Shown here one piece after another: positions 4,701 to 62,300 of a DNA stretch of 64,000 nt; the first letter of the stretch is position 1, and each line of letters begins with the position of its first letter. The DNA is taken from contig JAUCBJ010004174.1 in NCBI GenBank assembly GCA_032718475.1, positions 25,664-89,663 on the forward strand, written 5' to 3'. A program made the translations under genes and the position numbers. The stretch comes from Nemertoderma westbladi (lineage: Eukaryota > Animalia > Xenacoelomorpha). Under the pieces are notes generated by a model, which did no database searches, had not been told where the DNA came from, and saw only the letters and a program-made list of their open reading frames with translations.

Positions 4701-7700
4701 ACCTTATACAGCGAACCCGAACTGCCTCTACAACGTTCGTTCCACAGTAACTAACCTTAGACAGCGAACCCGAACAGCCTCTACAACGTTTGCTCCACTG
4801 TAACTAACCTTAGACAGCGAACCCGAACAGCCTCTACAACGTTTGCTCCACTGTAACTAACCTTAGACAGCGAACCCGAACTGCCTCTACAACGTTTGCT
4901 CCACAGTAACTAACCTTAGACAGCGAACCCGAACTGCCTCTACAACGTTCGCTCCACAGTAACTAACCTTAGACAGCGAACCCGAACTGCCTCTACAACG
5001 TTCGCTCCACAGTAACTAACCTTAGACAGCGAACCCGAACTGCCTCTACAACGTTCGCTCCACAGTAACTAACCTTAGACAGCGAACCCGAACAGCCTCT
5101 ACAACGTTTGCTCCACTGTAACTAACCTTAGACAGCGAACCCGAACAGCCTCTACAACGTTTGCTCCACTGTAACTAACCTTAGACAGCGAACCCGAACT
5201 GCCTCTACAACGTTTGCTCCACAGTAACTAACCTTAGACAGCGAACCCGAACTGCCTCTACAACGTTCGTTCCACAGTAACTAACCTTAGACAGCGAACC
5301 CGAACAGCCTCTACAACGTTTGCTCCACTGTAACTAACCTTAGACAGCGAACCCGAACAGCCTCTACAACGTTTGCTCCACTGTAACTAACCTTAGACAG
5401 CGAACCCGAACTGCCTCTACAACGTTTGCTCCACAGTAACTAACCTTAGACAGCGAACCCGAACTGCCTCTACAACGTTCGCTCCACAGTAACTAACCTT
5501 AGACAGCGAACCCGAACTGCCTCTACAACGTTCGCTCCACAGTAACTAACCTTATACAGCGAACCCGAACTGCCTCTACAACGTTCGTTCCACAGTAACT
5601 AACCTTAGACAGCGAACCCGAACTGCCTCTACAACGTTCGCTCCACAGTAACTAACCTTATACAGCGAACCCGAACTGCCTCTACAACGTTCGTTCCACA
5701 GTAACTAACCTTAGACAGCGAACCCGTACTGCCTCTACAACGTTCGTTCCACTGTAACTAACCTTAGACAGCGAACCCGTACTGCCTCTACAACGTTCGT
5801 TCCACTGTAACTAACCTTAGACAGCGAACCCGTACTGCCTCTACAACGTTCGTTCCACAGTAACTAACCTTAGACAGCGAACCCGTACTGCCTCTACAAC
5901 GTTCGTTCCACTGTAACTAACCTTAGACAGCGAACCCGAACTGCCTCCACAACGTTCGCTCCACAGTAACTAACCTTAGACAGCGAACCCGAACTGCCTC
6001 TACAACGTTCGCTCCACAGTAACTAACCTTATACAGCGAACCCGAACTGCCTCTACAACGTTCGTTCCACAGTAACTAACCTTAGACAGCGAACCCGAAC
6101 AGCCTCTACAACGTTTGCTCCACTGTAACTAACCTTAGACAGCGAACCCGAACAGCCTCTACAACGTTTGCTCCACTGTAACTAACCTTAGACAGCGAAC
6201 CCGAACTGCCTCTACAACGTTTGCTCCACAGTAACTAACCTTAGACAGCGAACCCGAACTGCCTCTACAACGTTCGCTCCACAGTAACTAACCTTAGACA
6301 GCGAACCCGAACTGCCTCTACAACGTTCGCTCCACAGTAACTAACCTTAGACAGCGAACCCGAACTGCCTCTACAACGTTCGCTCCACAGTAACTAACCT
6401 TAGACAGCGAACCCGAACTGCCTCTACAACGTTCGCTCCACAGTAACTAACCTTAGACAGCGAACCCGATGGTTTACTGAACTGCCTCTACAACGTTCGT
6501 TCCACAGTAACTAACCTTAGACAGCGAACCCGAACTGCCTCTACAACGTTCGCTCCACAGTAACTAACCTTAGACAGCGAACCCGATGGTTTACTGAACT
6601 GCCTCTACAACGTTCGTTCCACAGTAACTAACCTTAGACAGCGAACCCGAACTGCCTCTACAACGTTCGCTCAACAGTAACTAACCTTAGACAGCGAACC
6701 CGAACTGCCTCTACAACGTTCGCTCCACGGTAACTAACCTTAGACAGCGAACCAGAACTGCCTCTACAACGTTCGTTCCACAGTAACTAACCTTAGACAG
6801 CGAACCCGAACTGCCTCTACAACGTTCGCTCCTCAGTAACTAACCTTAGACAGCGAACCCGATGGTTTACTGAACTGCCTCTACAACGTTCGCTCTACAG
6901 TAACTAACCTTAGACAGCGAACCCGAACTGCCTCTACAACGTTCGCTCCACAGTAACTAACCTTAGACAGCGAACCCGAACTGCCTGTACAACGTTCGCT
7001 CCACAGTAACTAACCTTAGACAGCGAACCCGAACTGCCTGTACAACGTTCGCTCCACAGTAACTAACCTTAGACAGCGAACCAGAACTGCCTCTACAACG
7101 TTCGTTCCACAGTAACTAACCTTAGACAGCGAACCCGAACTGCCTCTACAACGTTCGCTCCACAGTAACTAACCTTAGACAGCGAACCCGAACTGCCTCT
7201 ACAACGTTCGCTCCACAGTAACTAACCTTAGACAGTGAACCCGAACTGCCTCTACAACGTTCGTTCCACAGTAACTAACCTTAGACAGCGAACCAGAACT
7301 GCCTCTACAACGTTCGCTCCATAGTAACTAACCTTAGACAGCGAACCCGTTCTGCCTCTACAACGTTCGCTCCTCAGTAACTAACCTTAGACAGCGAACC
7401 CGAACTGCCTCTACAACGTTCGCTCCACAGTAACTAACCTTAGACAGCGAACCCGAACTGCCTCTACAACGTTCGCTCCATAGTAACTAACCTTAGACAG
7501 CGAACCCGAACTGCCTCTACAACGTTCGCTCCACAGTAACTAACCTTAGACAGCGAACCCGAACTGCCTCTACAACGTTCGCTCCACAGTAACTAACCTT
7601 AGACAGCGAACCCGAACTGCCTCTACAACGTTCGCTCCACAGTAACTAACCTTAGACAGTGAACCCGAACTGCCTCTACAACGTTCGCTCCACAGTAACT

Positions 7701-8260
7701 AACCTTAGACAGCGAACCCGAACTGCCTCTACAACGTTCGCTCCACAGTAACTAACCTTAGACAGCGAACCCGAACTGCCTCTACAACGTTCGCTCCACA
7801 GTAACTAACCTTAGACAGCGAACCCGAACTGCCTCTACAACGTTCGCTCCACAGTAACTAACCTTAGACAGCGAACCCGAACTGCCTCTACAACGTTCGC
7901 TCCACAGTAACTAACCTTAGACAGCGACCCCGATGGTTTACTGAACTGCCTCTACAACGTTCGCTCCACAGTAACTAACCTTAGACAGCGAACCCGAACT
8001 GCCTCTACAACGTTCGCTCCACAGTAACTAACCTTAGGCGGCGAACCCGAACTGCCTCTACAACGTTCGCTCCACAGTAACTAACCTTAGACAGCGAACC
8101 CGAACTGCCTCTACAACGTTCGCTCCACAGTAACTAACCTTAGACAGCGAACCCGAACTGCCTCTACAACGTTCGCTCCACAGTAACTAACCTTAGACAG
8201 CGAACCCGAACTGCCTCTACAACCGCTCCACCGTAACTAACCTTAGACAGCGAACCCGAT
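1785..8260. repeat. 53-bp tandem satellite, ~120 copies (GAACTGCCTCTACAACGTTCGCTCCACAGTAACTAACCTTAGACAGCGAACCC), with six 64-bp variants
   Basis: Period 53 (1785, 1838, ...); 11-bp insertion GATGGTTTACT at ~2209, 2482, 6468, 6585, 6861, 7932; the array runs into exon 8242-8382. Confidence 0.98.
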
Positions 8261-35300: not shown

Positions 35301-38300
35301 TTTTGGCGACTGGGGGGGGGGGGTCAATTTTTTTCGATCCGCTATAACTCCGGAACGCTTTGTCCAAATTCGATGGGGTTTTCCTTTTTCAACTTAATTC
35401 GATGTCCTCTTTCAGCCTATCCATGTTTCCAAACCCCAAACAGCGCCGTTCAAAAATTAATTTTTTCCAGTTCTAGAATTTTACAAATTTCAAAAAAGTT
35501 GCAGTATTTTATTAACGCCTTTACGGAATTCGATAGCGTTTTCGATTTTTATATTAAAGGCAATATCCTGAATCTCACTAGCCTAGTTTCGTGTCACCGA
35601 TGCCAAGACTTCATACTTTTGAGGAAAATTTTTCTAGAATAATTTTTATTTAATTACATTTATCGCGATTTCTTATTAATGGTTGCACATGAATTGATGG
35701 AGTTTTCAATTTATTAACTAAACACGATATCGCGCATCGCACCAGCGTGGTTTCGAAATTCCAAAACGAGGTCTTCACTAGTTGCATGTCGATTTTGTTC
35801 AAAAATTGAGCAACTAATAATAGATCGAATTTATTATCAATTATTGTATGAAATATGATTGTATTTTTACATAATTATTAGTTCTATACTAATTCTCGTT
35901 GTCTCTTTTATTTAAAATAAAAAGTCGGTTCCTTATCGGGCCGCTAGGCCCGTCACTAGTTAGCAAGTCGTTAGACTTGATTACTGTAAGAAAAAAAAGC
36001 TACTGGCTACTGGCTACTGGCTACTGACCTAGAGCAAAAACGGCTCTAACGATTTTGATGAAATTTTGCATGGACCATGAAAATGGATTTCTAAGGGTAC
36101 TTGTGAAATCGCGGTTTAAATTGAAACATCTCAACTTGTTTTATTTCGAAAAATAGCCACAAAACACGAAATTTGCCATAGGCGAGGCGCAATGATAAAA
36201 CACCAGCTGGCACTCATGAAAAATGTATAGAGATGGCCTGGTAATGCATTCAATAGGAAGGGCAACTAACAAAGAAGTATTGTCTGTGCCAAGTTTTATT
36301 ATCACTCTACTCTACAACCCAGACAGTAATCAAACAAAACATTAACTGGTTTAGCTGGGTATTACAGTCTCAGCTGAATAACTCTTCCCAATGCATCCTT
36401 GCTATGTTAATTAATTGGCGTGCAAGCTAAATGACTGTTAGTTAAACAGTGTGTTGGCTACACAGTGTATTGTACTATGCTCTCATTGCATTATTGTTTT
36501 ATTTTGAAATCTTTGCGCCAACATTAATACTGTGGAGGCTGTATGTTGATAAGGCTGCATGTTTACTCAGCTTCATAATGATTCTCCATAAGGCTAACAT
36601 TATAGTTTGAAATATAAAAATCTGTTATTATAATTGTTGTATTTAATTAATATCGTGGTTTACATTGAACAGTGTAAATTGTTTATCGCGGTTTACATTG
36701 AAACATCTCAACTTGTTTATTTATTACTAAAATAAGAACGAATTTGTCTTATCACTTCTTGTGCGCGATTGTATTGAATTCATGACAACTGCTATTATTA
36801 TTATTAATCAATTGACACCTCGACTCCTCTCTGAGACTCCGACTACTCTATCCGATAGAATAAAATAGTCATTTCGCTAACTGCTCTCTATCTTACGGTG
36901 GCTGAAAGCGGCCAAAATAATTCACTACTTTTTTAATTTTTAATTTGATCAACATTTTTTTCTTGAATTTCAACCCGGGTTGAAATTAATATCAACCCGG
37001 GTTGAAATTAATATCAACCCGGGTTGAAATTAATATCAACCCGGGTTGAAATTAATATCAACCCGGGTTGAAATTAATATCAACCCGGGTTGAAATTAAT
37101 ATCAACCCGGGTTGAAATTAATATCAACCCGGGTTGAAATTAATATCAACCCGGGTTGAAATTAATATCAACCCGGGTTGAAATTAATATCAACCCGGGT
37201 TGAAATTAATATCAACCCGGGTTGAAATTAATATCAACCCGGGTTGAAATTAATATCAACCCGGGTTGAAATTAATATCAACCCAGGTTGAAATTGAATT
37301 ATTCGTACCGGTACTGTAGAATGTAATATGAGGTAATGTCATGTTGTAGGAGTAGGAGTAGAGCTGTAGTCTGCAGTCTGTAGAGGCAGAGACTGAGAGA
37401 GGCTGAGAGGTTGGCTTATCACAGTATCAGTGCAGTACTGCAGTACCAGTGACGGTGCTACGGTGCTTGGTCAGTTCCAGTTGGTAACCTAATTCTGTAA
37501 TTCACGATCTAAAAATGAGTAGGCCCAGTCCTAATAGTAGGCCTAGTGTTACTGGTGAATTAGGACTACCGGCACCATTGCCTATTACTCACGAACGACG
37601 ACGGTTATTATCGGAGTTAAGAAGTTACATAAACCTTGGTGTTGAAGACATTAATCGTGTCACTGGTCGGAGCGACGGCGTTACCTGTAGGCTTACTAGC
37701 GGCACATCTAGAATGGTTACCGGTACCGGTACTGAAAGTGAAACGGCTTCTGATTCCGGCGATTCATCGGATAATGATTTTCGAGATGAGACAACGCGTT
37801 TGCGTCGGATACCTTCGACTACCGATACTGATAGGCTTCACCTTCCCTCACGCTCGTCCTCAAGTCATTTGCGCAACTCTCGTAGATTTTCGCGCGCGAA
37901 GAATAGGCCTCTGATAGGGAGCCTAGGTAAAGTTGGTCGGCCTTCTCAATCGACTAAAGTTGTTATCGTTAAACTTAAAGTTCGTTACATTAATTCCACG
38001 AATGCAGATAGCATCACCATTAGAAAGCCCTTGGGTGAGAGTAATTCTTTGAAGATGAGTCTACCAATGGATGCGAACTTATCGGTCGTTAAAAAGTTGA
38101 TTCTCAATAAAATATTTATTGAAGAGCATAACCGTTGTTTGAGGGAGCAAGGATTTCCCTCAAACCGTAATTCTTATTCGTTTCAATTAACTAACTTACA
38201 AGGCGAGAAACTTAAGCCAAAGTTTTGTTCCCTTCGACAGTATACATTGGAGCGGTGTGTTTTAGGATCCTTAAAAATCGCTGTTGTTGGAGAATTGCCC

Positions 38301-41300
38301 GAAGAGGATACCGGTAATGAGTTGGAGAACGATTCAACACTACCAGCCATTGCCGAATGTGACACGGTTCCACCCTCGCCAGGCGATGAAGGTGCCAGTA
38401 CCAATGACGTGGTTCTACCTCCGACACCTGTTGGTATACTCAGTGTCGGTAATGGCGTGGCTGCACTTCCGCCAGCCCCAGCCCTTGATGGTACTGACGC
38501 GGTTCTACTTCCGCCAAACGTCGGTGAACTCGGTTCCTTCTGTGACATGGAACCGCTTCCACCAGCCTCCTCCGGTAATGATGTAGTTCCTGTTCTGCCT
38601 CCTCCTTTAATCGATGACCAAGTATATCAAGACACCAGTACCGATATACGTCAGGAATCCGTGTATGAAGTTCTGTCCCGTTTGGAGTGCAAAGTGGGTC
38701 TTTGCAACAAGGTAAACATCGTTAATGTTGACGACCGAGACAATGTACTTGATTGTGGATACCGGGCTTTTTCAAGAAAGGGATTCAACATATGGGAACC
38801 TTTATCTGTTAAATTCATTGGGGAGCGAGGCATAGATGCTGGAGGACCTTCGCGCGAATTCATGCGGTTAACATTACAAGCGATCAGGGATTCTGCGTTA
38901 TTCAGCGGCGAGGAAAATTCCAAGAACATCGAACTGGATTACAACAGTAAGTTGCATCAAATAATCTTATGCTGTTTAAATAAATTTAATTAAACTTCTT
39001 AATTTAACTGAACCAAATATAATTACATTTTTATAATATTTAATTATTATATTTTATTTTTCAGGTCTAAACTTAAACAGGTATTACCTGGCGGGAAAGA
39101 TGATAGGTTACTTCATCATACACCGAGGTTCGACTCCTAGTTTCCTATCCCCATTGTTGTATAACATAATTAGTATAACCGATGGATTTATTTCCGCCAC
39201 CCCGGCAGTGACTGATATAGCTGATTATGAACTACGGGACAAAGTTAATAAAGTGAGATATAGATAATTATTTATTTAATAATATAACATAAATATTAAA
39301 TAAACTAATTAAATAACTATTATATTTCGGTTAGGCCTATACAAAATATTGTTAACCATAACTTTACTTTAGATAAGTTCTGCAGAAACATCCGGAGAAT
39401 TCAACACTGCAATAGACGAGGCTACTGATCTGATATCTATGAGTGGTTGTTTCAATATAACTATCCATGGCTTCAGCGACCAAACGAAAATAGATCTTGT
39501 TGGAGCTTTGGCTAAATTCATTGTGATGGATAGAAATCGTCGTGCCATTGAACAGTAAGTTAATCATTAGTATAGTTAATTATCATAATCGCTCAATTAG
39601 TCAATATTAATTTCAGGAACTTTTTACAATTAATTTTAAACTAAACAGTCAAGTGCACTTTAGATTCCAGGATGGTCTAAAAGAAGTTGGATTAATTAAC
39701 GAAATTCTAAGAAATCCCGATGGTTGGCGGGAATTCTTTGTGCATAACGAATGTGTACTTACCTCCGAAGCTGTACAAGATTTGTTTATAATACAATGGT
39801 CAGAGAACAACAATAGTATTCGGAAGAGAAAGGAGAAACGTGTTGCAGCATATTGGCTGGATCTGTTGCAGGATTTGGGAGGTATTTTAAATTTTTTATT
39901 CAAAATTGAATAAAAAATGAAAATCACCACCAATCAAATAATTGATAAACTGTTAATTAATTTATAAATCGATTACTTGCTTAATAATTAATATGTTTCT
40001 TTCTCCTTAATTCATATATTTCTTGATTATTAATGAATGTATTGATTATTGATTAATCTGTTTATTTTTCTTTGAAATTTGTTTAACTGTTGTTTAATAA
40101 TTATGTGTTGCATTATTGTCCCAATAAGCCTAGGTCGCCTCGTATTTGTTTTGGTGTAAAGGTAAACTATACGCCGACAGCCTACAGCGGCCAACTAACA
40201 GCCGACAACAGTTATAAATGTTGCTGGGTGTTAGTTGCCGGCAATCGGCGTAGCGTTTACACCCTCCCGTATCCGTTTAATCGTCCTGCAGTTTAAATTG
40301 ATTTAATTAAATTTTTATATATTTTTAATTTTTAAATTATTGCATTTTTATTACAGACGGGGTTACAGGATATGCATCCGGGCGAGTAGTCGGGCTGAAA
40401 GACCTTCTTATATTTGTGACTGGTATCGATGCTGTTCCCGCACTTGGATTTAACCGGGATCCTTCAGTTGTATTCCTCCACCCCGAGGACGATAACCAAT
40501 ATTACATTGGTCTACCAAGATCAAACACTTGTGGTCTCATTTTAAGTCTACCGATTGTTGGGTCCTACGACGAGTTTAAACGCAATATGATTAGCGCATT
40601 GGAGATAGCGACTACATTCACCGATGATTGAATGAAACTATAAACATTTTAGTAATTGTTTATTATATACTAGAAGTAAAATAGAAAAATTAAGAACTAA
40701 ATTAGAACTATAGTCGTTTTATAGTAATAAAGAACTGTTATTCTTATAATAAAGTAAGAATTAGAAATTATATGTAAGTATGAATCATAAATAGTGCATT
40801 ATATTAGATATTAGAAATAGTAATGTTTGTTTACATTCCCCTAATGATTGGCAACATCGAGGTGTCACCAGCGCAGTATCTTCAAGGAAACTGTCACATA
40901 AGTTAGCGATCTCAGGGATACAGTGTGGCAGTTTGGTAGCGAATATTCTCATAGAGGCTAGAGATTCTATCTCCACGTGGTGGATGTAGTTAGGTGACTG
41001 TAAATAAAGTAGATTTGGCTTTCCTCCCGGGGATAATAGACCGCTACGGCGAATCCGGTGGCTATTGTGATAGACCATTATTAAATCGAGAGTATACTGG
41101 AGAAACGGCAAGTAAACATATCTAACAATTTCTATATGTATAAAGTTTGAAGTATCCAAAAAGGCAAGTTCTAATTCTGCGAAATGATCTAACCAATGCG
41201 ATAATCCAAGTATTGGAATCTTGGACCAAAAAGACTCAATCCTTTGGTTCCTTGTACTTTTACCGTAGATAAACGTTGTACCGTTCAGGGCAGCATCATC

Positions 41301-44300
41301 ATTATGATAGAGTCGAAGAAAGCGCTGGATAATTTCAATGTTGACGTTTTCTGTTCCGCGATCCGAACGTATAATATGCGGAATGCCTCGCAATAAATCG
41401 ATTATTTCTAAAAAATAGGCTGCCACTACGAAAGGATCGTTATTGCTCTGACCGCATTTTAACCACATAATCTTTCTGCTAAAACCGTCCATTCCACCAT
41501 GAATAGCTAAACCGAACGGTTTAAGCTTATCCCATCCGTCAATGTGGAGTAGAAAGTTTGGTCCCTTCGAAAAGTAAGTGCGACGTGTAAGTTTGTGCTT
41601 GATACGGCACAACCGCCCATCCGGATCTAGAATACGCAGCAGTTCGGCAGTTAATTTACGCGGTACATAAATGTTATGTTGGTACATTAAAACATGTTGC
41701 ATCTGCCGGTATCCAGCTGTACTTGGAGAACGATTATCACTAGAGTTTTTATGAAGTTCATTCTGTATGGTATCGACTATCACACCAAAATCAGCCGGAT
41801 TAAACCGTCGATGCAACTTAATTGATGATAAATAACGACGAACGGTTCTACAGGAAATGTACAAACCACAGGATTGCTGCAGTATCTGCGCTATTTCTGC
41901 ATGCGTATATCCCAACCAAAAATTATCAGAAATTTCCTTCCTCCAAGGTTGCGCCGAGACTAATATTGGCAACAATATAATAATCAAAACCAGTGCAGCT
42001 ACCGGTACTGATAGCGTTACAGTAGTAACATATTTCGTCATAATGATTTAAGCTTAAGTTTATAGCTTGTAAGTTTTGTGAAGACAGAAAGTTCCGGTCT
42101 GGTATGCAGTAGGTAAGGTACAGACAGTACCGGTCGCGGTCTGCGTCTGGTATGCAGGTTCCGATTTACACGCCGCCTTTCAGCTCTAGGTACAGTACCG
42201 GTTCGGCATGCAGGTTCCGTTTTTGATTTACACGCCGCCTTTAAGTCAGTTAGTTACATTTTAAATTTCCCTCTTCCTCATCAACATGAGTCAAATCCTC
42301 TAAAAGTCAGCTGATTGATATTAATTTCAACCCGGGTTGATATTAATTTCAACCCGGGTTGATATTAATTTCAACCCGGGTTGATATTAATTTCAACCCG
42401 GGTTGATATTAATTTCAACCCGGGTTGATATTAATTTCAACCCGGGTTGATATTAATTTCAACCCGGGTTGATATTATTTTCAACCCGGGTTGATATTAA
42501 TTTCAACCCGGGTTGATATTAATTTCAACCCGGGTTGAAATTCAAGAAAAAAATGTTGATCAAATTAAAAATTAAAAAAGTAGTGAATTATTTTGGCCGC
42601 TTTCAGCCACCGTACTATCTTCTATAATAACAACAGCTTTTATAATTCATTGGATGATTACAACATAATAATTATAGTTTGAAGTTGTCTAGAAAATTTT
42701 TCGTACACCACCAGGACTACCCTCACACTAATTGATTATCAGACAGAACAAAAAGCTTTTACTTGACTCGTATTGTCTCCTACGACTTGCTTCACGGGCC
42801 GCTAGGCCCGTCTCTAGTATTTTACCCGGTAATAATAATTCTAATTTAAATGTGCAAAATAATCCAAATAATAATTCTAATTTAAATGTGCAAAATAATC
42901 CAAATAATAATTCTAATTTAAATGTGCAAAATAATCCAAATAATGATTCTAATTTAAATGTGCAAAATAATCCAAATAGTAACCCTAATTCTGAACAAAA
43001 TAATTTAAATAATTTAGGTAACAATATTACGTTAAATAATAACCCCGAGGAAATTAAAAATATTATTAATTACGATGCAATTAATACCAACGTAGGGGAG
43101 GCAGGTGGTCCGGCCAACGAGAGCCTGCAAGGCCACGTAGTTGCACAAGGAGTAGCGGGGGTGAGTCAACCCAACGAGAGCCTGCAAGGCCACGTAGTCA
43201 CGCAGGGAGTAGAGGGGGTGAGTCAACCCACCGGGAGCCTGCAAGGCCACGCAGTCGCACAGGGAGAGGCGGGGGTGAGTAGACCCAGCCAGGGTAGAGA
43301 TAGTGCATCGACTAGAGAGGGGTGTGGAAGCGAAGTAGGAGGTAGCGAAGTAAGAGGTGGCGAAAGGGGGGGGGGGGGGGGGGGGGGGGGCTACGGGCAC
43401 CCCACCACAAGAGATTAGTGGCAAGAGGGGGGGGGGGGGGCAGAAATTGTGCCACAAGTGTCGGCGGAGAATGCGCGTGGCGAGTTAGGTGAACCGCGGC
43501 ACCCGATGACAGAGAATAGTAGGGGGATTGCGAGTATCCCCAGGAGTGTCCAGCAAAGCAGAGAGAGAGACATTGGCGCCGTGGGCAGGCGGGCGAGAGG
43601 ACGTCGGGCCCAGTCGGAGGGCGGGGGAAGAACAGTGGAGTTTATCCGGGAGGTCGAAGAGAGATCTTACGAGGCGGATCACTATACTGAAGAGAGAAGA
43701 AGTGAAGAGAATAGAAGAAGCGTTGCTACGAGCAACCGGAGAGGAAGGATGGACAGTGAACCGTCGGTAGAAGAGATGGAGTTAGAGAGTCGGTGGGGTC
43801 GAACTCCGGGAGATTGCCATCGCCCCGGAGAGACGCAGCCTGGTGAGATATACCACACACCGGGAGAAGGGTACAGCATGTACCGGTGTGAGGACGTGAA
43901 CAGGAGAGGGGATCGAAGAGAAACTTCCCGACGGGACATAGCTGCCGATCGAGAGTACGGTAGTCGCAGGGAGGACTTCTTGGAATATTCGAGAAGATTA
44001 AACTTCGGTCCGGAAGGACCCAGGCAGACTGCAGGGCATACTGTAGGCCTTACTGCACATACTATAGGCCATGCTGGAAGATATAGTGTAGGCGATAGGG
44101 TAGCGCGGACAACAGGATTAGATCCGGAAGTCGCGGTATACATACCGGTAGGAAGGCAAGAAGTGGATAGGCCTATACCGGTACCTGCACACCAGTATGA
44201 CTATGATATGCTAGGATATAATATATACCCAGGGGAGGGGGGAGCTATTGCCGATAGATATGGGCCCTAACATGGTAACATCAACCCCAGTACCAAATAT

Positions 44301-47300
44301 AACACCGGTGGGGGGGGGGGGGGGGGGGGGGGGCAGGGTGAAAATTCCCCCATTACAATATCAGCAATATACTCAACCAAGAACAAAAACCCCAAACACC
44401 TCGGACCAAAATAAGTCGTGTGATACAGAGATATGGAGGGGACCGTTACCCCCAATGATATATCCAACGCAGAAAAGGTCGACAGGCCCGACGGGCGAAC
44501 CGCACCAAGCGGCGGGGGAGTCTGCACAGCATCCATCGAGCGTGCTAGAAGTACAAGCGATGGGAATGGCAACACTCATTGACGAACTTGAGACCAGGAT
44601 CGAGCTGCCACCAATGGAGCCGTTCAAATTGGATGGTAGTAGGCCGGAGGAATACCTGCAATTCCAGCGTATGTATAGTAACGAAATATTAACGAAGAAC
44701 CTGACGCAGGCGGAGTGCCTAAAATACTTACAAGTTTACACAGGGGGGCCAGCATACGACATCGTAAGGCAGTACCAAGGTATCGAAGGTGGATTCACGA
44801 CTGCATGGCGGGCCCTAGACAGGGAATTCGGACATCCTGCTAAGATCATCCGACAAACCTTAAGGGGAATAACATCAGGTGGACTACAGGATAACCCTGT
44901 CAGCATCAAGACTTTCGCGAACAGAGTCGAAAATGTGCTAATTGTGCTAAAGACCTTAGATGCGCCTTACGAACTCAACGCATCGAATAACATCACCACA
45001 ATAGCGCAGGCACTACCCATCTGGCTAAGGAACAAATGGCGAAAGATCGCCTTCTCCACCCGCGAGAAGAAAGGTGTGGAACCAGGCGGAGTTGATTACA
45101 GACCCAGTCTACAGTGAGGATAGTTTGGGGAGGGCACTGAAAGCTGAATACATCAGGCCTAAACCCGAACATAGTCCGGCGGATGCATTCCCGAGGGTGA
45201 GACAGTTGCTACCACATGCGGCCACGCAGGGGTCTTGTAGTCCACAGGCAACTGGAAGTAGGGCCACACCGTGGCAGGGACAAAAACAAAACAACAACAC
45301 GAACAAATATAATCCCAACACCCCCAGTAGGCCGAGTCCAAATAACCAAAACACTAAACCGGTAGATATGAACCTACGCGCGATACATGAAGGGCTATAC
45401 AAGGAACGCTACAATCCAGGATACAAATGTCAATTGCATAGAGATGGAACCCACAACACCATGAATTGTAAGCATTGGCAAGCGTTGCCTAAACAAGATC
45501 GGGTAGCCTACGCGGATATAAATGGACTATGTCATCGATGCGTGGTAGAAGGACACAGATTCGGAAAGTGTAGAGAAACATCGATAGAATACGACGAGAC
45601 TGATGAGAGTGGAGGCCAAACTATGGCTACGAGCAAGACGGGAGCAAGGAGAAAGAGAACGGTACTACTCGAAACAGTACCAGTGAGAATAACAGGAGAG
45701 GATGGGCTATCGGTCACAACATTAATGTTGATCGATAGTGGAGCAGCATTCACGCTAACGGAGGGTTGGGTGGCCGAAAAGATAGGGTTACGAACGAGGC
45801 CAAGCAAGATGGCGGTAACAACTATCTCGAGTAAAGACGAGGTCTTGAAGATGAGAACGGGGCGTTGTAAAATATCAGCGATAACGCCAGGGTGCAATTA
45901 TGGGGCGACCATCGATCCCATTCAAATAATAGAATCGATTAATATTAATGCCAGGCGACCCACAAAGATCGAGGTCGAACAATACCAGTACCTGGACAAC
46001 ATCGATTTCTCCGTGCCCGAACTGGACGTCCCGAAAGTATCTCTCATAGTCGGAATGGACTGCCCGACGGCCCACGGGAGAACGGCCATGCTCGGAGATG
46101 ATGGGGGGAGAGGCCCGATGGCGATTTGCACGCCATTCGGATGGACACTCAGCGGCCCAATCAAGTCTAGAATTCCGTTCAGCGTGTCGGAATCCTCAGG
46201 GTGCATGTTTGCTATGAGAGAAATAGAGGACGGAGGAACAGAGGAGAAACTAGAGACGGGCGATGGGGAGGACCCATACGAGAAGCAGGCCAAGGAAGAA
46301 AACCAGGAGTCGGGGATGGGTATGGATCTGGAACCACGCATGGTGGAGCATGGTGAAAGGGTGGAGGACAGAGAACTACCGCCGACTGATGAGTCAGGAA
46401 GAGAAACAACAACAAGAGAGTGGGCGGACGAGAATGGGGAGTATCGGCATGGGGATAGAGAAGTGTGGACAGCGAGATGCCGAGATGTCCGGAGAGGTGT
46501 CCGGATCAGACGCCGGTCCAGTTGAGAGGCATACCGTGGGGAGGAGGCCGAGTAAGAAGACAAGGTGGAAAGGGAGAGGATGTGGGAAGATTAGACCAGG
46601 GGCAGAGAAGCCCATGATGAAACGTGACAAAGGAGGCAGGAAAGTGGGAGAGGGCGTGTTGTACACGCATAAGGGGGTGGCAGAGTGCGAAGGGGCATTA
46701 AATGGTAAGCCATTACGTGTACCGAAGGATGACCGGGGGTCATCGGGGGCTAGGTAATAAGAAAATAATATCACCTATAATGTTTCTTCAGTTTAAATAT
46801 GGTTACTATCATTTTAAAAAGAAACCAATTCAGGATCAAGTACCTCACATGTTGCTATGTTCAGACCATAATTTGCCAGCCAATCATGTCATTTCTTGTT
46901 GCCAAGGCAACCAAAAATATTATTTAATATGTGAAAATTCCATCAGAATCATTTTATATGTTCTTCAGATGCATATCAATATGTTACATAGTCAACATTC
47001 ATGATCACAAGCGAAGTCATTATTCTGTTGTTTCCATAGCCACGGGCATATTTTAGTATTATGTAGTTATAGTAACGTATTTGGCATTTTATTGACATTG
47101 TAAGTTAATCATATTAAAGATTATTGAAAAAAATTGTGTGGAGTCTGCTACAGTTATTTTATTTAACAAAGTCTTGAATTTTAACCATAGCAACGGGAGT
47201 TTTGATCCTAATTCGGGAGTGACTTGTTAAAAATACTCAAAATTCGGTTTAATGTACATTTCAGTATTTTGTAGCATGAGATGCTGTAGAAATTACAAAA

Positions 47301-50300: not shown

Positions 50301-53300
50301 ATACCTCCACCACAGATACTCATGTTGCCACGATCTCCATAGCAATGTGTGCGAGTGTAAGCGTCGTTCCTTAGTAACGGGAGGCTCCGTGTTCGTAAGA
50401 CCCGCTCACAGTGTTCACCGTTGCGGTGCGTTTGGTGCGACGCGGAGTTGCTTCGGATTGGACAAACATTACCCGCCGGAGTGGCTGAGCTCCGGGAGGG
50501 ACAAACCGACATCGCATATCGGCGGTCGGACCAGCGCCGAAACCTGGTCCAACCTCGCCCGCAGCTGGAGTAAGCGCTCCGTCGGTGGGTTAGACCACAA
50601 GGGGGGCGCTTATACCTGGTCTAAGGGAGTCCTCGTGTTCGGTCTGGTTGTGGGGGGCGTTGCTATGGCACTGCGCACCGCTCAAGGACAACTACTGCTG
50701 GCGTTTATCGCTGGTGTCGATATTATCAAGGAGTTACAACAGTAAATATTACGGAATAGAATATAGTCAACCTAACGAATATTTACAAATTTTAGCGCAA
50801 TATAATAATGTTGGTTTTGTTTCAATCGTTGAATCTTAAAACAATTGGTTGAAATTCGGTTTCAATACAATAATGAAACACTATAGAATTCAATAAATAA
50901 ATTCGAGGTTTTCAATATTTCTACTTCTAGAAACTGCAAACCATTAAGGGGGGGGGGGGGGGGGGGGGTTGTTGGAATAAATAATTATACACTCACTTGT
51001 AACAGGGTTGACCCCCAACGACCTCGGTGAAACTAAACCTTCCCTCCTTTCCGCCAATAGGAACGCCGGTTTTGTGTTTGTATTCGCAGCACGAACTCAG
51101 TCTGGTATCCATGACGCCGTTGATGTAGCAGGCTACACTAAACGGGTAACCGAAATGTCGCATCGACGTAAAAGTAAATTCATCTGTAATTGTTAAAAAA
51201 ATTACAATTTAAATATTATGTTTATATACGTACAAACCTTTTCTACTTCAATGCTGTTTCAACACTCATGTAATAACATTTTAGAAATTCCTCCAAAAAT
51301 ATTTTAATTTCTTATTTTTGCTTTTTTAGCCGCAAAAAATTAAACTCAAGGCAATCCTAAAGGTTACTTTTTCCTTAGGGAAAAAAGTACAACTTCCTTT
51401 TCTCCCAATTTTGGGAAATATTCAGGCGAAAATGTAACAATTTATGAATAAAATCCATATTTTATGTTTAACAAATCAAATAAATAATCATTCAATAGAA
51501 ACAAAACTGAAACTATTAAAAATTTTCTGCCGCAGCAATAATTCCCTACCGTTATGTATTAAATAACTCATGAGAGTTAAGTGCAAGGCCATTGATTGAA
51601 ACCAGACACCCCAGGTCATTCAGCCCTTTAATATCTCTCCGATAGAATGTTGACAGAGAGCCCGGGGTATTACATTGTGTTACGCAGTTTAACTACCGCC
51701 ACCATTACCTATAATACATGGCGTCCATTGATTATCGAAAATGCATATAAATCTCAACACAAGCCAAGGACGAATTCGATAAATCTTACCTCCGGGGAGC
51801 AAATACTGACGGAACACGACGATGGTGTTTCCTCCGCAGTGCTGCTGCAACAAGGCCACCTCAGAGGCGTCGTCTTTGTTGAGTCCTCTGAGACCGTGGA
51901 AACGCATGGAACACTCAATGAGTGGGCCTCCAACCCGGTGCGACTTGGGCGGTTCTTGGGGGTGTAAATAGTTGGTACCCTGGGGAGTAACGGGGGGAGT
52001 TATCAGTAGTTTAACGTAGACGATGTGCCTTATCTAACAGGAGGGTTTCTTCAGAAAAATACTACAAAAAAGCGCCAAGTAAAACGTAATCACTACAACG
52101 CCAAGTAAAACGTAATCACTACAACGCCAAGTAAAACGTAATCACTACAACGCATATTTAAAAACCAAATTTAAAACTAAAACGCAATTAAAATTATTAT
52201 TTGAAGGGAATGAAATATAAATAATTTTGGTCAACCAATTTTCGAAACTTCTTATAAGAGTAGACGAGATTATAAAACAGAAATAATGATTGTAAAATGG
52301 AATACCAGATTAAAACGGAACCACATTCTTATAGTAACCCCAGAGACCACCATAATTTTTATTTATAATCAAAAAATGGTAAGTAGGATTAAAAACAAAA
52401 TCAAAAGGTCATAAATAACTTTTTATTTCCACAAAGTTTGAGTTTATTTTTTAGCGAGAAAAAGTAAAGGGAAAGATATTTTGAACTTTACTTTAATCAA
52501 TAATTTTGTTGACCAAAATAAAATTAGTGGTTAATTTCAATGCGGTAATTCCATTGATACCTCTTTTGAATTAGATCAAACGATAAACATTAACAGAACT
52601 TTTAAATTATTGTATTAAGTCATCTAAAATTATGTTTATGAAAATCTTCGCGCAGTTAATCTACTTAATTTCAACAATATTTTGCCTTAGGCAGATGCGC
52701 AGATTGCGCCCCATTTGAACTTATAACGCCACGATATGTGTTGCATGTAAAGAGTTACAATTAGTGTTTAAATGAAAGCTATAATTTATCCGTTACCATG
52801 GAAACGCGCACAATAAACCGGGTAATATATTTGAAAAATCATTGACTATAATGTAACAAAAATATGTTGGGGGTCTCAAGGGTTATTACGATATTGTATT
52901 TCCGTGTTAATAAAGTCTGCCATGTGTGCACAGTGCAAGTGTATATTATTATGGATTAATGGTATTGGGACATAAATTGAATAGGGACATAAATGCAAAT
53001 GGTATTGGGACATAAATGGAATAGGGACATAAATTGAATAGGGACATAAATGGTATTGGGACATAAATGGAATTGGGACATAAATGGTATTGGGACATAA
53101 ATGGTATTGAGACATAAATGGAACAGGGACATAAATGGAACAGGGACATAAATGGAACAGGGACATAAATGGTATTGGGACATAAATGGTATTGGGACAT
53201 AAATGGTATTGGGACATAAATGGAATTGGGACATAAATGGAATTGGGACATAAATGGAATTGGGACATAAATGGAATTGGGACATAAATGGAATAGGGAC

Positions 53301-56300
53301 ATAAATTGAATAGGGACATAAATGGTATTGGGACATAAATGGAATTGGGACATAAATGGAATAGGGACATAAATGGAATTGGGACATAAATGGAATTGGG
53401 ACATAAATGGAACAGGGACATAAATGGAATTGGGACATAAATGGAATAGGGACATAAATGGAATTGGGACATAAATGGAACAGGGACATGAATGGAATTG
53501 GGACATAAATGGAACAGGGACATAAATGGAATTGGGACATAAATGGAATTGGGACATAAATGGAATTGGGACATAAATGGAATTGGGACATAAATGGAAT
53601 AGGGACATAAATTGAATAGGGACATAAATGGTATTGGGACATAAATGGAATTGGGACATAAATGGAATAGGGACATAAATGGAATTGGGACATAAATGGA
53701 ATTGGGACATAAATGGAACAGGGACATAAATGGAATAGGGACATAAATGGAATTGGGAAATAAATGGAACAGGGACATAAATGGAATTGGGACATAAATG
53801 GAATAGGGACATAAATAGAATTGGGACATAAATGGAACAGGGACATAAATGGAATTGGGACATAAATGGTATAGGGACATAAATGGAATTGGGACATAAA
53901 TGGAACAGGGACATAAATGGAATTGGGACATAAATGGAATTGGGACATAAATGGAACAGGGACATAAATGGAATTGGGACATAAATGGAATAGGGACATA
54001 AATGGAATAGGGACATAAATAGAATTGGGACATAAATGGAATAGGGACATAAATAGAATTGGGACATAAATGGAATAGGGACATAAATAGAATTGGGACA
54101 TAAATGGAACAGGGACATAAATGGAATTGGGACATAAATGGTATAGGGACATAAATGGAATTGGGACATAAATGGAACAGGGACATAAATGGAATTGGGA
54201 CATAAATGGAATAGGGACATAAATAGAATTGGGACATAAATGGAACAGGGACATAAATGGAATTGGGACATAAATGGAATAGGGACATAAATAGAATTGG
54301 GACATAAATGGAACAGGGACATAAATGGAATTGGGACATAAATGGAATAGGGACATAAATGGAACAGGGACATAAATGGAATTGGGACATAAATGGAACA
54401 GGGACATAAATGGAATTGGGACATAAATGGTATAGGGACATAAATGGAATTGGGACATAAATGTAACAGGGACATAAATGGAATTGGGACATAAATGGAA
54501 TAGGGACATAAATAGAATTGGGACATAAATGGAATTGGGACATAAATGGAACAGGGACATAAATGGAATTGGGACATAAATGGAACAGGGACATAAATGG
54601 AATAGGGACATAAATAGAATTGGGACATAAATGGAACAGGGACATAAATGGAATTGGGACATAAATGGAACAGGGACATAAATGGAATTGGGACATAAAT
54701 GGAATAGGGACATAAATAGAATTGGGACATAAATGGAACAGGGACATAAATGGAATTGGGACATAAATGGAATTGGGACATAAATGGTATAGGGACATAA
54801 ATGGAATTGGGACATAAATGGAATTGGGACATAAATGGAATAGGGACATAAATGGAACAGGGACATAAATGGAATTGGGACATAAATGGAACAGGGACAT
54901 AAATGGAATTGGGACATAAATGGTATAGGGACATAAATGGAATTGGGACATAAATGGAACAGGGACATAAATGGAATTGGGACATAAATGGAATAGGGAC
55001 ATAAATAGAATTGGGACATAAATGGAATTGGGACATAAATGGAACAGGGACATAAATGGAATTGGGACATAAATGGAACAGGGACATAAATGGAATAGGG
55101 ACATAAATAGAATTGGGACATAAATGGAACAGGGACATAAATGGAATTGGGACATAAATGGAACAGGGACATAAATGGAATTGGGACATAAATGGAATAG
55201 GGACATAAATAGAATTGGGACATAAATGGAACAGGGACATAAATGGAACAGGGACATAAATGGAATTGGGACATAAATGGTATAGGGACATAAATGGAAT
55301 TGGGACATAAATGGAACAGGGACATAAATGGAATTTGGACATAAATGGAACAGGGACATAAATGGAATTGGGACATAAATGGAATAGGGACATAAATAGA
55401 ATTGGGACATAAATGGAATTGGGACATAAATGGAACAGGGACATAAATGGAATTGGGACATAAATGGAATAGGGACATAAATAGAATTGGGACATAAATG
55501 GAACAGGGACATAAATGGAATTGGGACATAAATGGAACAGGGACATAAATGGAATTGGGACATAAATGGAATAGGGACATAAATAGAATTGGGACATAAA
55601 TGGAACAGGGACATAAGTGGAATTGGGACATAAATGGAACAGGGACATAAATGGAATTAGGGCATAAAAGTCGTTTAATCATGTTTCAAGGAGGTTCAAA
55701 AGGAAGACCACTTCAGTAAGACCACATACCAGACACCTCATTTAGAAATATATAACCTAAATCATGAATGTTATTTTGAGTGAATTCAAACCAAAATAAT
55801 GGTTATAATGGTTGTGCAGGTATACTGGCTGTGAGATGATATCGCTCGATTAGGCTATATCAATACCCTGGGACTTCTATGTTTTGGTTGCCAATCTGCG
55901 GGCAACGATGCTCGTGTCTGTGGAGGCGCTGTATGCGGTCGTCTACGGTGGATATAGTAGCCAATAGGAAGGGACCACCAGTCTCTGGCACCACGGTTGT
56001 CTGGGTAACCACCAGGGAGGCCCTCTTTCAGTCGTCCTGGTGTGGGCATACGGAGACCAGGAGACCACTGGTGGCGAGGATTGGAATCCATTTTTTTACT
56101 CTGAATCAGATAAAACATGGAAACTGATCAGATGTCATTCAATCTAACCAAATAATTATACACTCAGAATGTCAAACAAAATTAGGTTCATTTTTTAACT
56201 CAATGATTTTGCTTGGTCGATAATTCTGTACAATAAACAATTAATATCACAATTATGTGACATAATTGTGTGATCACAATTAGGGTAATAGTCCGGCAGC

Positions 56301-59300: not shown

Positions 59301-62300
59301 ATCAGAAAGGAATTATGAATTACAATTATAATTGATTATAGTTTTATAATTAACTATAATTATATGAAAATAAATAGTTAACTTTTTTAATACTATGAAT
59401 AACAATCGGTTAACAATCCATTTAGACATTCAATATAGATAATTTAAATAAATTTGTCGAATATCAACATTAGACTGCGATTACCCGAAAAGCAAAGTTA
59501 CACTCCGGAAACTTTTCGGTCACAGGATGACCCCGATAAAGAACGCGACATGTCTTCTTCTTTCGTTTACCAATTGTCTGACTCTCCTGGTGACGTTAAC
59601 CACAAAATAAAATAATTAATGTCATAAATGACCACCTTGGAAATATAGAACAGCTAGGCTCACTTAATGCATCAGCATTAGCTTAATGCATCAGCATTAG
59701 CTTAATGTATTAGCATTAGCTTAATGCATCAGCATTAGCTTAATGCATCAGCATTAGCTTAATGCATCAGCATTAGCTTAATGCATTAGCAATAGCTTAA
59801 TGCATTAGCAATAGCTTAATGCATTAGCATTAGCTTAATGCATCAGCATTAGCTTAATGCATTAGCATTAGCTTAATGCATCAGCATTAGCTTAATGCAT
59901 CAGCTTAATGCATCAGCATTAGCTTAATGCATCAGCATTAGCTTAATGCATTAGCAATAGCTTAATGCATTAGCATTAGCTTAATGCGTCAGCATTAGCT
60001 TAATGCATCAGCATTAGCTTAATGCATTAGCAATAGCTTAATGCATTAGCATTAGCTTAATGCATCAGCATTAGCTTAATGCATTAGCATTAGCTTAATG
60101 CATCAGCTTAATGCATTAGCATTAGCTTAATGCATTAGCATTAGCTTAATGCATCAGCATTAGCTTAATGCATCAGCATTAGCTTAATGCATCAGCATTA
60201 GCTTAATGCATCAGCATTAGCTTAATGCATCAGCATTAGCTTAATGCATCAGCATTAGCTTAATGCATCAGCATTAGCTTAATGCATCAGCATTAGCTTA
60301 ATGCATCAGCATTAGCTTAATGAATTAGCATTAGCTTAATGCATCAGCATTAGCTTAATGCATTACAGTCAAGTCAATGTTATAAATAATCATTGTTACT
60401 CTTACGTTGCAATGCCGCATTGCAGCTGCATTATATATAATATATATTTTTTAATGCATGGTCGCATCCAATGCTCTCGAGTAATTTTGACTGAAATTGA
60501 GCTGGGCCCATTTTATAAACAAAAAGGCGCCAAATAATGCCGCTTATCTATCCCATCATAGTAGACATGTACCGAACAACAAGAGTCCCACAAGAAATGA
60601 AAACAAATAAGTTGGTGCCAGTTCACAAGAAGGGCAACCTAACACTCTATGGTTCTTTTCGGGGAATCTCATTGATCTCGATTGCTGCAAAGCTATACAA
60701 TAGGATTCTATTAAATCGCATCAGGGATCCCATTGAGAGACTGCTCCGTGGAAATCAGAATGGGTTCCGTAAAGGTCGTGGGACCATGGAGCCCATTTTG
60801 GCACTTAGAAGGATAATTGAAGAGTTATCAAAAAAGAAAGACAGGCATCTGGCTGTTATCTTTGTTGACTTCTTCAAGGCCTTTCATTCAGTCTCTCGTT
60901 CATGTATGTTCAGCATACTTTCATTATATGGGATTCCTGATGAAATTATTGCAGCAATCAGATCAGTATACGATGGTTCGACAACATTTGTGTCTACTGT
61001 TGACGGTGACACAGAACCATTTGAAGTGTTATGGGGCGTCCTCCAAGGAGACACACTTGCACCATTCTTGTTCATTATTGTGGTTGACTATGTTCTACGC
61101 ATGTCCTTAGATCATCATAATGATGATGGGGTGATGATAACTCCACCTACTGGCTCCAGAAGTCGAGGAAATCTTACCAAGTACCTAACTGATCTAGACT
61201 TTGCTGATGACTTTTTAGGAGTACTCTCAGAATCACGAGAGGGAGCCCAACGGCTCCTCAGCTCAATAGAACATGCTGCTTCTAGTGTTGGTCTTTATAT
61301 TAACTCTAAAAAGACCAAAATTTTGACAGTTAACTTTGAAAGTCCTCAGCAAGTCTCTCATCGGATGAGCATAAGCTCAAAGGATGGTATGCTTGAGCAT
61401 GTGGACGACTTCTGTTACCTGGGATCATGGATCAAGAAGTCAGGTAAGGACCTTCGAATACGTAAGTGAAAGGCATGGGCAGTCTTGAATAGGTTTTCCA
61501 GGATTTGGAAGTCACAGAGAATTAATCGGAAACTTAAGGTCCGAGTATTCAGAGCAGCAGTAGTTCCAGTACTCCTCTATGAGAGTCCATGCTGGGCTCT
61601 AACTGCTGAGGACACCAAATCTCTGGATGGCACATTCACAAGAATGCTACGCGGGGTTCATTGTGTCAAGTATAAAGCACACATCTCAATCCAGACAAAC
61701 TAGAACAAAGTCGCCTCCGCTTTGCAGGACATTGCTTTCGCCGTGAGGACCAGCCAGTGCATAATCTTGTGCTTTGGCAGCCTCATGGAGTGAATAAGCA
61801 TGGTGTACAGCCCATGACTTTCTTGAGACGCATCTCGGCAAGGACACTGGCCTTGAAGATGCGGATGATCTAGCAAATGTCATGGGTGATAGGGAGTTGT
61901 GGCGGTGCAATTTTGTTGACAAGCCGGCACAGCATTCTTAAAAATGCAGCTACAATGCAGCATGCCGATCCTAGTAGTAGTAGTAATGTATTCCATAATT
62001 TATTTTGACTTCTAACTAATGACATACAAGTGGCACACGGGCCTTAATGAGGCCACCAAAGCATACGATACAGATCCTCGCGATGAAAGCAATGGCGGCT
62101 CCTTTCAAGTGCTAAGCTTTTGGGGATCAATCCAAAGATATGGTGGACTCAGCAGTTAGAGCCCAGCACAGACTCCCATATACGAGCACTGGTTCTACTG
62201 TCTGTACTGCAGCTCTAAATAATTGAACTTTGTGTGAATGGGATGAGCACAAATGGCAGTGTATCCACTCAGTAAATTATTGGTAGTAACGGTAGGGAAG

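What the first reader, a model, noticed from the sequence alone, without database searches (positions are those of the whole stretch)
41945..42041. Transposase begins with a signal-peptide / transmembrane-like segment
Seen: the DDE ORF starts MTKYVTTVTLSVPVAALVLIIILLPILVSAQP, i.e. a basic residue, an uncharged hydrophobic core of over 20 residues and a V-S-A|Q cleavage-like site, just before the HTH-like region. There is no other in-frame Met until after the HTH. Established: transposases act in the nucleus and normally lack such segments. Inference: the transposase may be membrane-tethered or sequestered and released by ubiquitin-dependent processing, which would give the co-encoded E3 a role. 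Alternatively it could be anchored at the nuclear envelope or exported.
Basis: partly seen in the sequence, partly recalled or inferred. Interest (0 to 1): 0.8.

Follow-up and report, generated by a model that had tools for sequence, protein, structure and literature searches.

The report
Jumping-gene enzyme with export signal
An intact cut-and-paste transposon encodes a DNA-cutting enzyme that starts with a predicted protein-export signal, as do many of its animal relatives, some of which also carry a predicted adaptor for the cell's membrane-extraction motor, so these enzymes likely detour through the endoplasmic reticulum before they reach DNA.

Summary
The 418-aa DDE transposase (40785-42041, minus strand) of an intact 5.7-kb IS3EU-type element starts with a 30-residue signal-peptide-like leader; the next Met is at 114. 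Relatives share it in character, not in sequence: my rule calls a signal peptide in 35 of 63 scorable related loci, against 10 of 315 other-frame controls. Those leaders have Kozak-like ATGs and dN/dS of 0.45-0.56, usually precede a conserved mature start (VLPxYxP), and their introns lie before the hydrophobic core. The DDE triad is intact in 42 of 42 signal-bearing proteins. New here: the HECT partner of seven related loci (one clade) carries a FAF1-like helix-plus-UBX module, a p97 adaptor type needed to pull proteins out of the ER. Best reading (inferred, untested): ER targeting, then ubiquitin/p97 release or destruction. Against it: this window's partner lacks the UBX, its leader is atypical, HECT also occurs in signal-less elements, and no SignalP run or RNA evidence was possible.

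The parts
36894..42614 (.). Complete IS3EU-type DNA transposon, 5721 bp, termini TACGG..CCGTA
   Evidence: Sequence. The same terminus at 42614 runs into unrelated flanks in 7, 8 and 4 contigs of runs X1, X2, X3.
36888..36893 (+). Left target-site duplication CTATCT
42615..42620 (+). Right target-site duplication CTATCT
36894..37295 (+). Left terminal inverted repeat, including 15 copies of a 22-bp unit
   Evidence: 299-300 bp at 99.7% identity to the right end; array 36966-37295
42315..42614 (-). Right terminal inverted repeat, including 10.4 copies of the 22-bp unit
41952..42041 (-). Signal-peptide-like leader, residues 1-30: K3, hydrophobic core about 10-28, predicted cut after A30; A at -3 of the ATG
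   Evidence: AlphaFold helix 12-29 of low-to-moderate confidence
40785..42041 (-). Single-exon DDE transposase ORF, 418 aa (PF24764 rva_4, E 2.4e-29; triad D168/D227/E269)
   Evidence: RNase H/integrase fold, best PDB match IS21 IstA
41823..41948 (-). N-terminal three-helix HTH-like region, residues 32-73, directly behind the leader
   Evidence: weak PF01498 hit 46-79; helices 32-42, 47-58, 64-73, pLDDT about 85-90
37515..40631 (+). Convergent partner gene, predicted HECT E3 ligase: five exons 37515-38946, 39065-39252, 39373-39554, 39664-39881, 40357-40631; 764 aa, open frame, catalytic-type Cys kept; no UBX detected
   Evidence: GT-AG exon prediction; PF00632 on the last exon; UBX searches negative

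Best explanation
The segment is the N-terminus of an intact IS3EU-type transposase ORF and a predicted ER signal of a kind that many animal relatives also carry, so the enzyme is likely sent to the ER membrane and would then be ubiquitylated and pulled back by host p97, either to enter the nucleus or to be destroyed. Shown: the leader, the absence of another Met before the HTH, leaders under coding constraint in relatives, intact DDE triads, and helix-UBX-HECT partners in one signal-bearing clade. Inferred: SRP recognition; cleavage (some signal-less relatives start with Met at the same mature N-terminus); ubiquitylation by the element's own HECT; p97 extraction; and the purpose, a throttle that makes nuclear transposase depend on the partner gene. 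In this copy the partner has no detectable UBX, so host adaptors would have to supply that step.
For: Rule-based signal peptide in 35 of 63 scorable loci, against 10 of 315 (other frames, same DNA), 95 of 4248 (other DNA of the loci) and 76 of 497 Met-started open peptides (Fisher p 1.5e-11); shuffling keeps about 6 of the 35 calls. A at -3 of the ATG in 23 of 35 against 32% background (p 4e-5). Leader dN/dS 0.56 over 7 pairs (p 0.014), 0.45 without one badly aligned pair (p 0.002); mature linker 0.18; core 0.14. In four of those pairs DNA identity drops off shortly upstream of the ATG, and one pair differs by an in-frame 12-nt indel in the core. Residue -1 (A 21, G 7, C 5, S 2) and -3 are set by the rule, but +1 is not and is V in 27 of 35. 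Named mollusc and sea-urchin proteins have the leader. DDE intact in 42 of 42. Partner genes of L004, L008, L013, L014, L021, L033, L043 carry a helix-UBX module matching human FAF1 (E 6e-11); 15 of the 19 long database hits scanned have a Pfam HECT match in the same ORF; the two complete signal-less elements L050 and L060 lack the module. FAF2's helix and UBX are both required for p97 extraction from the ER (PMC12630741, passages). Precedent: 15-20% of HBV p22 returns to cytosol and nucleus after signal cleavage (PMC9300162, passages).
Against: The window's partner has no UBX even with a 152-sequence profile. The window's transposase is atypical: it lacks the VLPxYxP linker, its uncharged run is 27 residues against 8-22 in 35 relatives, its HTH helix 2 is as polar as in signal-less proteins (0.51 against 1.28 and 0.57), and it sits on a long branch whose 13-row group holds only 2 called signal peptides. 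HECT genes also sit beside signal-less transposases (L050, L054, L059, L060, L069). All UBX-bearing loci fall in one clade, so signal and UBX amount to about one independent contrast. N-glycosylation sequons are only slightly depleted (60 observed, 75 expected, p 0.04; signal-less 143 against 155) and none is conserved. Many active-looking relatives have no signal (73 rows). No start-site, cleavage or localisation data exist.
Confidence: 0.42

Rival explanations
1. The signal is a stand-alone attenuator: most transposase is dumped into the ER and degraded by ordinary host ERAD, and only molecules that escape import act. The HECT (with or without UBX) has a separate nuclear job, such as dismantling the finished transposition complex or removing host silencing factors.
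For: HECT partners occur with and without the signal; the window's partner has no UBX; signal-less proteins do not form one clade (AU p 0.008), so the signal is dispensable; L051 and L075 start with Met at the mature N-terminus. p97 sends non-imported prion protein to the nucleus without ubiquitin (PMC10992997, abstract and section headings). ClpX remodelling of the Mu transpososome is a recalled analogy, not from a call.
Against: The cleavage site and the residues behind it are conserved (linker dN/dS 0.18), which a pure disposal tag would not need; the captured module is the one required for extraction from membranes.
Confidence: 0.28
2. In this copy the leader is an uncleaved signal anchor that tethers the transposase to the ER or inner nuclear membrane, so it works at the nuclear envelope or is released by a later cut.
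For: Uncharged run of 27 residues, longer than in any of 35 relatives; hydropathy 3.0 over 19 residues; the predicted cut is only about one residue from the first HTH helix, against 10-16 in relatives.
Against: A canonical V-S-A|Q site follows a helix-breaking Pro; flanking charges (+1 before, 0 after) do not favour a cytosolic C-terminus; relatives look cleavable.
Confidence: 0.13
3. The transposase is truly secreted and acts in other cells, for example moving from somatic cells to germ cells and entering by its basic stretch.
For: Standard-looking cleavable signals in relatives, no ER-retention C-terminus and no strong downstream transmembrane segment; slight sequon depletion.
Against: No secreted-protein features such as extra Cys (2.4% against 2.5%) or conserved sequons; re-entry to a nucleus needs an unknown route; the UBX module points back to the cytosol.
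Confidence: 0.1
4. In this element the leader is untranslated, spliced out, or a chance hydrophobic extension.
For: A TAG at 41961-41960 has 9 of 15 upstream pyrimidines, within the 8-12 range of the partner's predicted acceptors; the leader has no sequence likeness to relatives' leaders; 18 of 159 window peptides pass the loose rule.
Against: No other Met before residue 114; none of the GT(A/G)(A/G) donors listed upstream lies inside an ATG-started frame with the right phase; most hydrophobic of 159 + 497 peptides; the family has the trait; in relatives a strong acceptor near or after the cut site occurs in only 2 of 35.
Confidence: 0.07

Closest known systems
[quoted passage not shown]
   Same: TA..TA (TAYGG..CCRTA) termini, 6-bp target-site duplication, long TIRs, integrase-like DDE transposase, accessory gene in opposite orientation.
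   Different: Term look-ups in these papers found no signal peptide, HECT or ubiquitin mention (supplements not read). The fungal families described carry kinase and TET/JBP genes instead.
Hepatitis B virus precore p25/p22 (PMC9300162; abstract and passages)
   Same: A nucleic-acid-binding-type protein given a cleavable signal; after cleavage a fraction returns to cytosol and nucleus. Its signal is Cys-rich; relatives' signals here are 6.5% Cys.
   Different: HBV makes a separate signal-less core protein from a downstream AUG; here there is usually no downstream Met (one in 5 of 35 loci; none in this window), and the element encodes its own E3.
MMTV Rem signal peptide (PMC5371415; search listing and start of abstract only)
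   Same: A mobile element using ER insertion, signal cleavage and p97-dependent retrotranslocation.
   Different: In Rem the cleaved signal itself is the extracted product; here it would be the downstream enzyme.
FAF1/FAF2 (UBXD8) UBH-UBX p97 adaptors (PMC12630741; abstract and passages)
   Same: The relatives' partner has the helix with the EQDxxYxxSLxxD pattern followed by UBX (E 6e-11 to FAF1).
   Different: Fused to a HECT domain inside a transposon; the FPR-type loop (recalled motif) is not conserved in the alignment; absent from this window's partner.

Membership tests
IS3EU/GingerRoot | TA..TA (TAYGG..CCRTA) termini | tested here: met
   TACGG at 36894 and CCGTA ending 42614; definition
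IS3EU/GingerRoot | 6-bp target-site duplication | tested here: met
   CTATCT on both sides
IS3EU/GingerRoot | TIRs longer than 30 bp | tested here: met
   about 300 bp, 99.7% identical
IS3EU/GingerRoot | Integrase-like DDE transposase with first Asp 100-300 residues from the N-terminus | tested here: met
   PF24764, D168/D227/E269, IstA/integrase fold
IS3EU/GingerRoot | Clusters with named Repbase IS3EU/GingerRoot proteins in a tree | not tested
   no reference sequences fetched
Cleavable Sec signal peptide | N-terminal position, short non-acidic n-region, hydrophobic core | tested here: met
   the core is unusually long
Cleavable Sec signal peptide | Small residues at -3 and -1 | tested here: met
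   V28/A30; home-made rule, not SignalP
Cleavable Sec signal peptide | Translated from the first ATG in a transcript | tested here: inconclusive
   A at -3 and only Met before the HTH; no transcript data obtained
Cleavable Sec signal peptide | SRP-dependent ER targeting and signal-peptidase cleavage | not testable with these tools
   needs in vitro translocation or cell work
FAF1/FAF2-type UBH-UBX adaptor (partner of related elements) | Helix plus UBX domain by sequence | tested here: met
   7 loci; PF00789 at or above cut-off in L014 and L021; FAF1 E 6e-11
FAF1/FAF2-type UBH-UBX adaptor (partner in this window) | Helix plus UBX domain by sequence | tested here: not met
   a single-sequence fold of residues in exon 1 failed (pLDDT 35)
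FAF1/FAF2-type UBH-UBX adaptor | Binds p97 and K48 ubiquitin chains | not testable with these tools
   no binding job run
HECT E3 ligase (partner in this window) | HECT domain with catalytic Cys near the C-terminus | tested here: met
   PF00632 E 1.8e-8; Cys aligned with relatives' HTC motif; activity untested

The most novel reading that the evidence does not exclude
A large branch of animal IS3EU transposons runs a two-gene ER-detour circuit: the transposase is made with a cleavable signal peptide and parked at the ER, and the element's own UBH-UBX-HECT protein ubiquitylates it and recruits p97 to release it to the nucleus, making transposition conditional on the partner. This would be a transposon-encoded version of the regulated release used by membrane-bound transcription factors and some viral proteins.
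Probability: 0.33. Interest if true: 0.92.

Novelty: new variant of a known kind. Interest (0 to 1): 0.8.

Why it matters
Transposases must reach nuclear DNA, so a signal peptide kept under selection across corals-to-molluscs-type animal lineages is unexpected. It implies an undescribed control point for transposition (ER routing, p97 extraction or ERAD) or protein transfer between cells. It gives a testable role to the ubiquitin-ligase gene these elements carry, adds a transposon-captured FAF1-like p97 adaptor, and warns that 'secreted uncharacterised proteins' in invertebrate annotations may be transposases. My ten paper searches found no description of either trait; Repbase Reports and most subscription papers are outside that library.

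Tried and rejected
No whole genome was held, so copy number and other copies' leaders could not be read. No RNA holder listed; the one possibly-RNA contig (X4, depth 2) covers 41729-41917 and stops short of the leader, so it says nothing. Viral contigs gave no relative. A homologue search with the window partner's residues 130-492 found nothing; the L014 UBX region found only 3 unnamed proteins, so partners could not be paired with named transposases. The single-sequence fold of the partner's exon-1 domain was unusable. The ESM Atlas did not complete. Type-I membrane topology (HTH helix 2 as stop-transfer): helix 2 is more hydrophobic in signal-bearing proteins (1.28 against 0.57) but keeps a conserved Glu and His, only 2-4 independent contrasts exist (sign test p 0.5), and the window's protein lacks the trait; not adopted. 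Glycan-editing signature: no conserved sequon. Intron artefact in relatives: rejected. No complex prediction was run. Hydropathy scales (Kyte-Doolittle, Hessa) were recalled, not fetched.

Full report
The element. The leader belongs to a 418-aa ORF at 40785-42041 on the minus strand. It matches PF24764 (E 2.4e-29), keeps D168, D227 and E269, and folds like IstA and retroviral integrases. It lies in a 5721-bp unit, 36894-42614, with TACGG..CCGTA ends, TIRs of about 300 bp at 99.7% identity and a CTATCT duplication. These are the IS3EU features given in PMC10045372 and PMC12730594 (passages). The terminus joins different flanks in 7, 8 and 4 contigs of three runs, so related ends occur at several sites. 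A convergent gene with five predicted GT-AG exons gives an open 764-aa HECT protein.

The observation. Residues 10-28 average 3.01 on the Kyte-Doolittle scale, the next Met is 114, upstream in-frame ATGs are closed by stops, and the ATG has A at -3. Only this peptide of 159 first-Met peptides in the window, and none of 497 in related loci, reaches 3.0. AlphaFold shows a low-confidence helix 12-29 in front of a confident three-helix bundle 32-73. An independent DNA sample has the identical leader.

Relatives. Among the 120 listed homologues (of 434) my rule called 16; two of these calls fall inside the HTH and are false, leaving 14, and four more look signal-like by eye. Named carriers include Pecten, Argopecten, Mytilus and Lytechinus proteins, several in multiple near-identical copies; one signal-less representative (P0078) has cluster mates with a full signal. 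With DNA (80 loci kept of 522 confirmed), 17 loci were dropped as too short upstream or lacking the N-terminus, and 35 of the remaining 63 have an in-frame ATG, hydrophobic core and small-x-small site 10-16 residues before the HTH. Controls: 10 of 315, 95 of 4248 and 76 of 497; shuffles keep about 6 of 35. The rule is home-made and was written after I had seen the leaders; loci include near-copies; and the sample is ranked by likeness to the query, so 35 of 63 is not a family frequency. Independent of the rule: A at -3 in 23 of 35 (background 32%); V at +1 in 27 of 35; leader dN/dS 0.56 over 7 pairs, or 0.45 after dropping L004/L037, against 0.18 for the linker and 0.14 for the core. Of 16 uncalled loci inspected (15 of the 28 negatives, plus L043), six have a splice acceptor at the start of a hydrophobic core that still ends in the usual site (L044, L057, L063, L072, L074, L079), two are decayed signals (L061, L039), and L051 and L075 begin with Met at the mature N-terminus. 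A strong acceptor near or after the cut site appears in only 2 of 35. The leaders are therefore exonic and constrained, and the mature protein is probably the same with or without them. The DDE triad is intact in 42 of 42 signal-bearing rows.

Evolution. In a 151-row FastTree and a 66-row IQ-TREE (midpoint root only), signal-bearing rows occur on both sides; starred branches force at least 5 changes when my 12 hand-labelled ambiguous rows count as a separate state, and the fewest changes between signal and no-signal is 4. One clade of the 27 signal-less rows is rejected (AU p 0.008; groups were labelled after I had seen the first tree). An old signal with several losses is the simplest reading, but without an outgroup the direction is not shown. 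The window's protein has a 1.25 end branch in a 13-row group (support 93) with two called signals.

The partner. Pfam on 53 of 85 flanking ORFs found HECT beside both signal-bearing and signal-less transposases, and UBX in L014, L021 and weakly L004. A profile extended the UBX module to L008, L013, L033 and L043 (L043 has the core and mature motif but its contig ends before an ATG, and it was not in the trees). The complete signal-less elements L050 and L060 lack it; L056 and L011 are signal-bearing without a hit but look truncated or deleted there. The module matches the helix and UBX of human FAF1 (E 6e-11), has 395 cluster representatives at E 1e-10 or better (some may be host proteins), and shares an ORF with a Pfam HECT match in 15 of the 19 longest hits scanned. 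PMC12630741 reports that this helix and UBX are both needed for p97 to extract substrates from the ER (passages). The window's partner is closest to the L008 HECT (31%) yet has no UBX by four searches.

Mechanism. A hydrophobic N-terminus of this strength would be expected to engage SRP (established knowledge). Because intact, multi-copy elements still need nuclear enzyme and usually have no downstream Met (5 of 35), the enzyme must escape import or come back. HBV precore shows that return after signal cleavage happens. The captured UBH-UBX-HECT protein would supply both ubiquitylation and p97 recruitment. I put this coupled circuit at about 0.42 for this element, against 0.28 for an uncoupled attenuator, 0.13 for a permanent anchor, 0.10 for secretion and 0.07 for artefact. 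That the leader is real and ER-directed I put near 0.8. The weak points are the single-clade UBX association, HECT in signal-less elements, and the atypical state of this copy: no UBX, no VLPxYxP linker, polar helix 2, longer core.

Novelty. Ten searches found no paper on these traits: IS3EU with HECT, 0 papers; UBX, HECT, transposon and transposase together, 0; a further E3 query, 0; searches listed nothing relevant by title or abstract start. Term look-ups in four IS3EU/GingerRoot papers found no 'signal peptide' or 'signal'; supplements and Repbase Reports were not seen. One earlier scan note reports the signal peptide in another genome and two report HECT genes in IS3EU elements; none of the notes shown names the UBX. 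Verdict: real, family-level, a new variant of IS3EU; interest 0.8.

Noticed in passing
L004, L008, L013, L014, L021, L033, L043 partner genes; P0226, P0293, P0325: Transposon-borne UBH-UBX-HECT fusion proteins with a FAF1-like module; worth its own study.
   Followed up: yes
P0058, P0081, P0085, P0092, P0104, P0114, P0116 (several named as fish); L068; L060:4450-4788: Signal-less transposases often start with a CxxC..CxxC zinc-ribbon leader instead; the L060 partner also starts with a zinc ribbon.
   Followed up: no
L058:2956-4352 (-): A signal-bearing transposase has a protein kinase gene, not a HECT, downstream in opposite orientation; element ends not checked.
   Followed up: no
window 36966-37295 and 42315-42542: The TIRs contain 15 and 10.4 tandem copies of a 22-bp unit with an internal palindrome, probable transposase-binding sites.
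   Followed up: partly
window 43419-46525 (+): BEL/Pao-like remnant (DUF1759 gag-like and aspartyl protease hits), broken into several frames, right of the element.
   Followed up: no
window 1785-8259; 52997-55668; 59663-60363: Long tandem arrays of 53, 34 and 19 bp; the 34-bp array explains three overlapping 900-codon ORFs on the minus strand.
   Followed up: no
window 60537-61469 (+): Reverse transcriptase ORF (PF00078).
   Followed up: no
window 42615-42800: The element is inserted into a very high-copy repeat (summed contig depth in the tens of thousands).
   Followed up: no
signal peptides of the 35 called loci: Leaders are 6.5% Cys; in HBV precore, signal Cys residues tune cleavage rate (PMC9300162). 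No background comparison made.
   Followed up: partly
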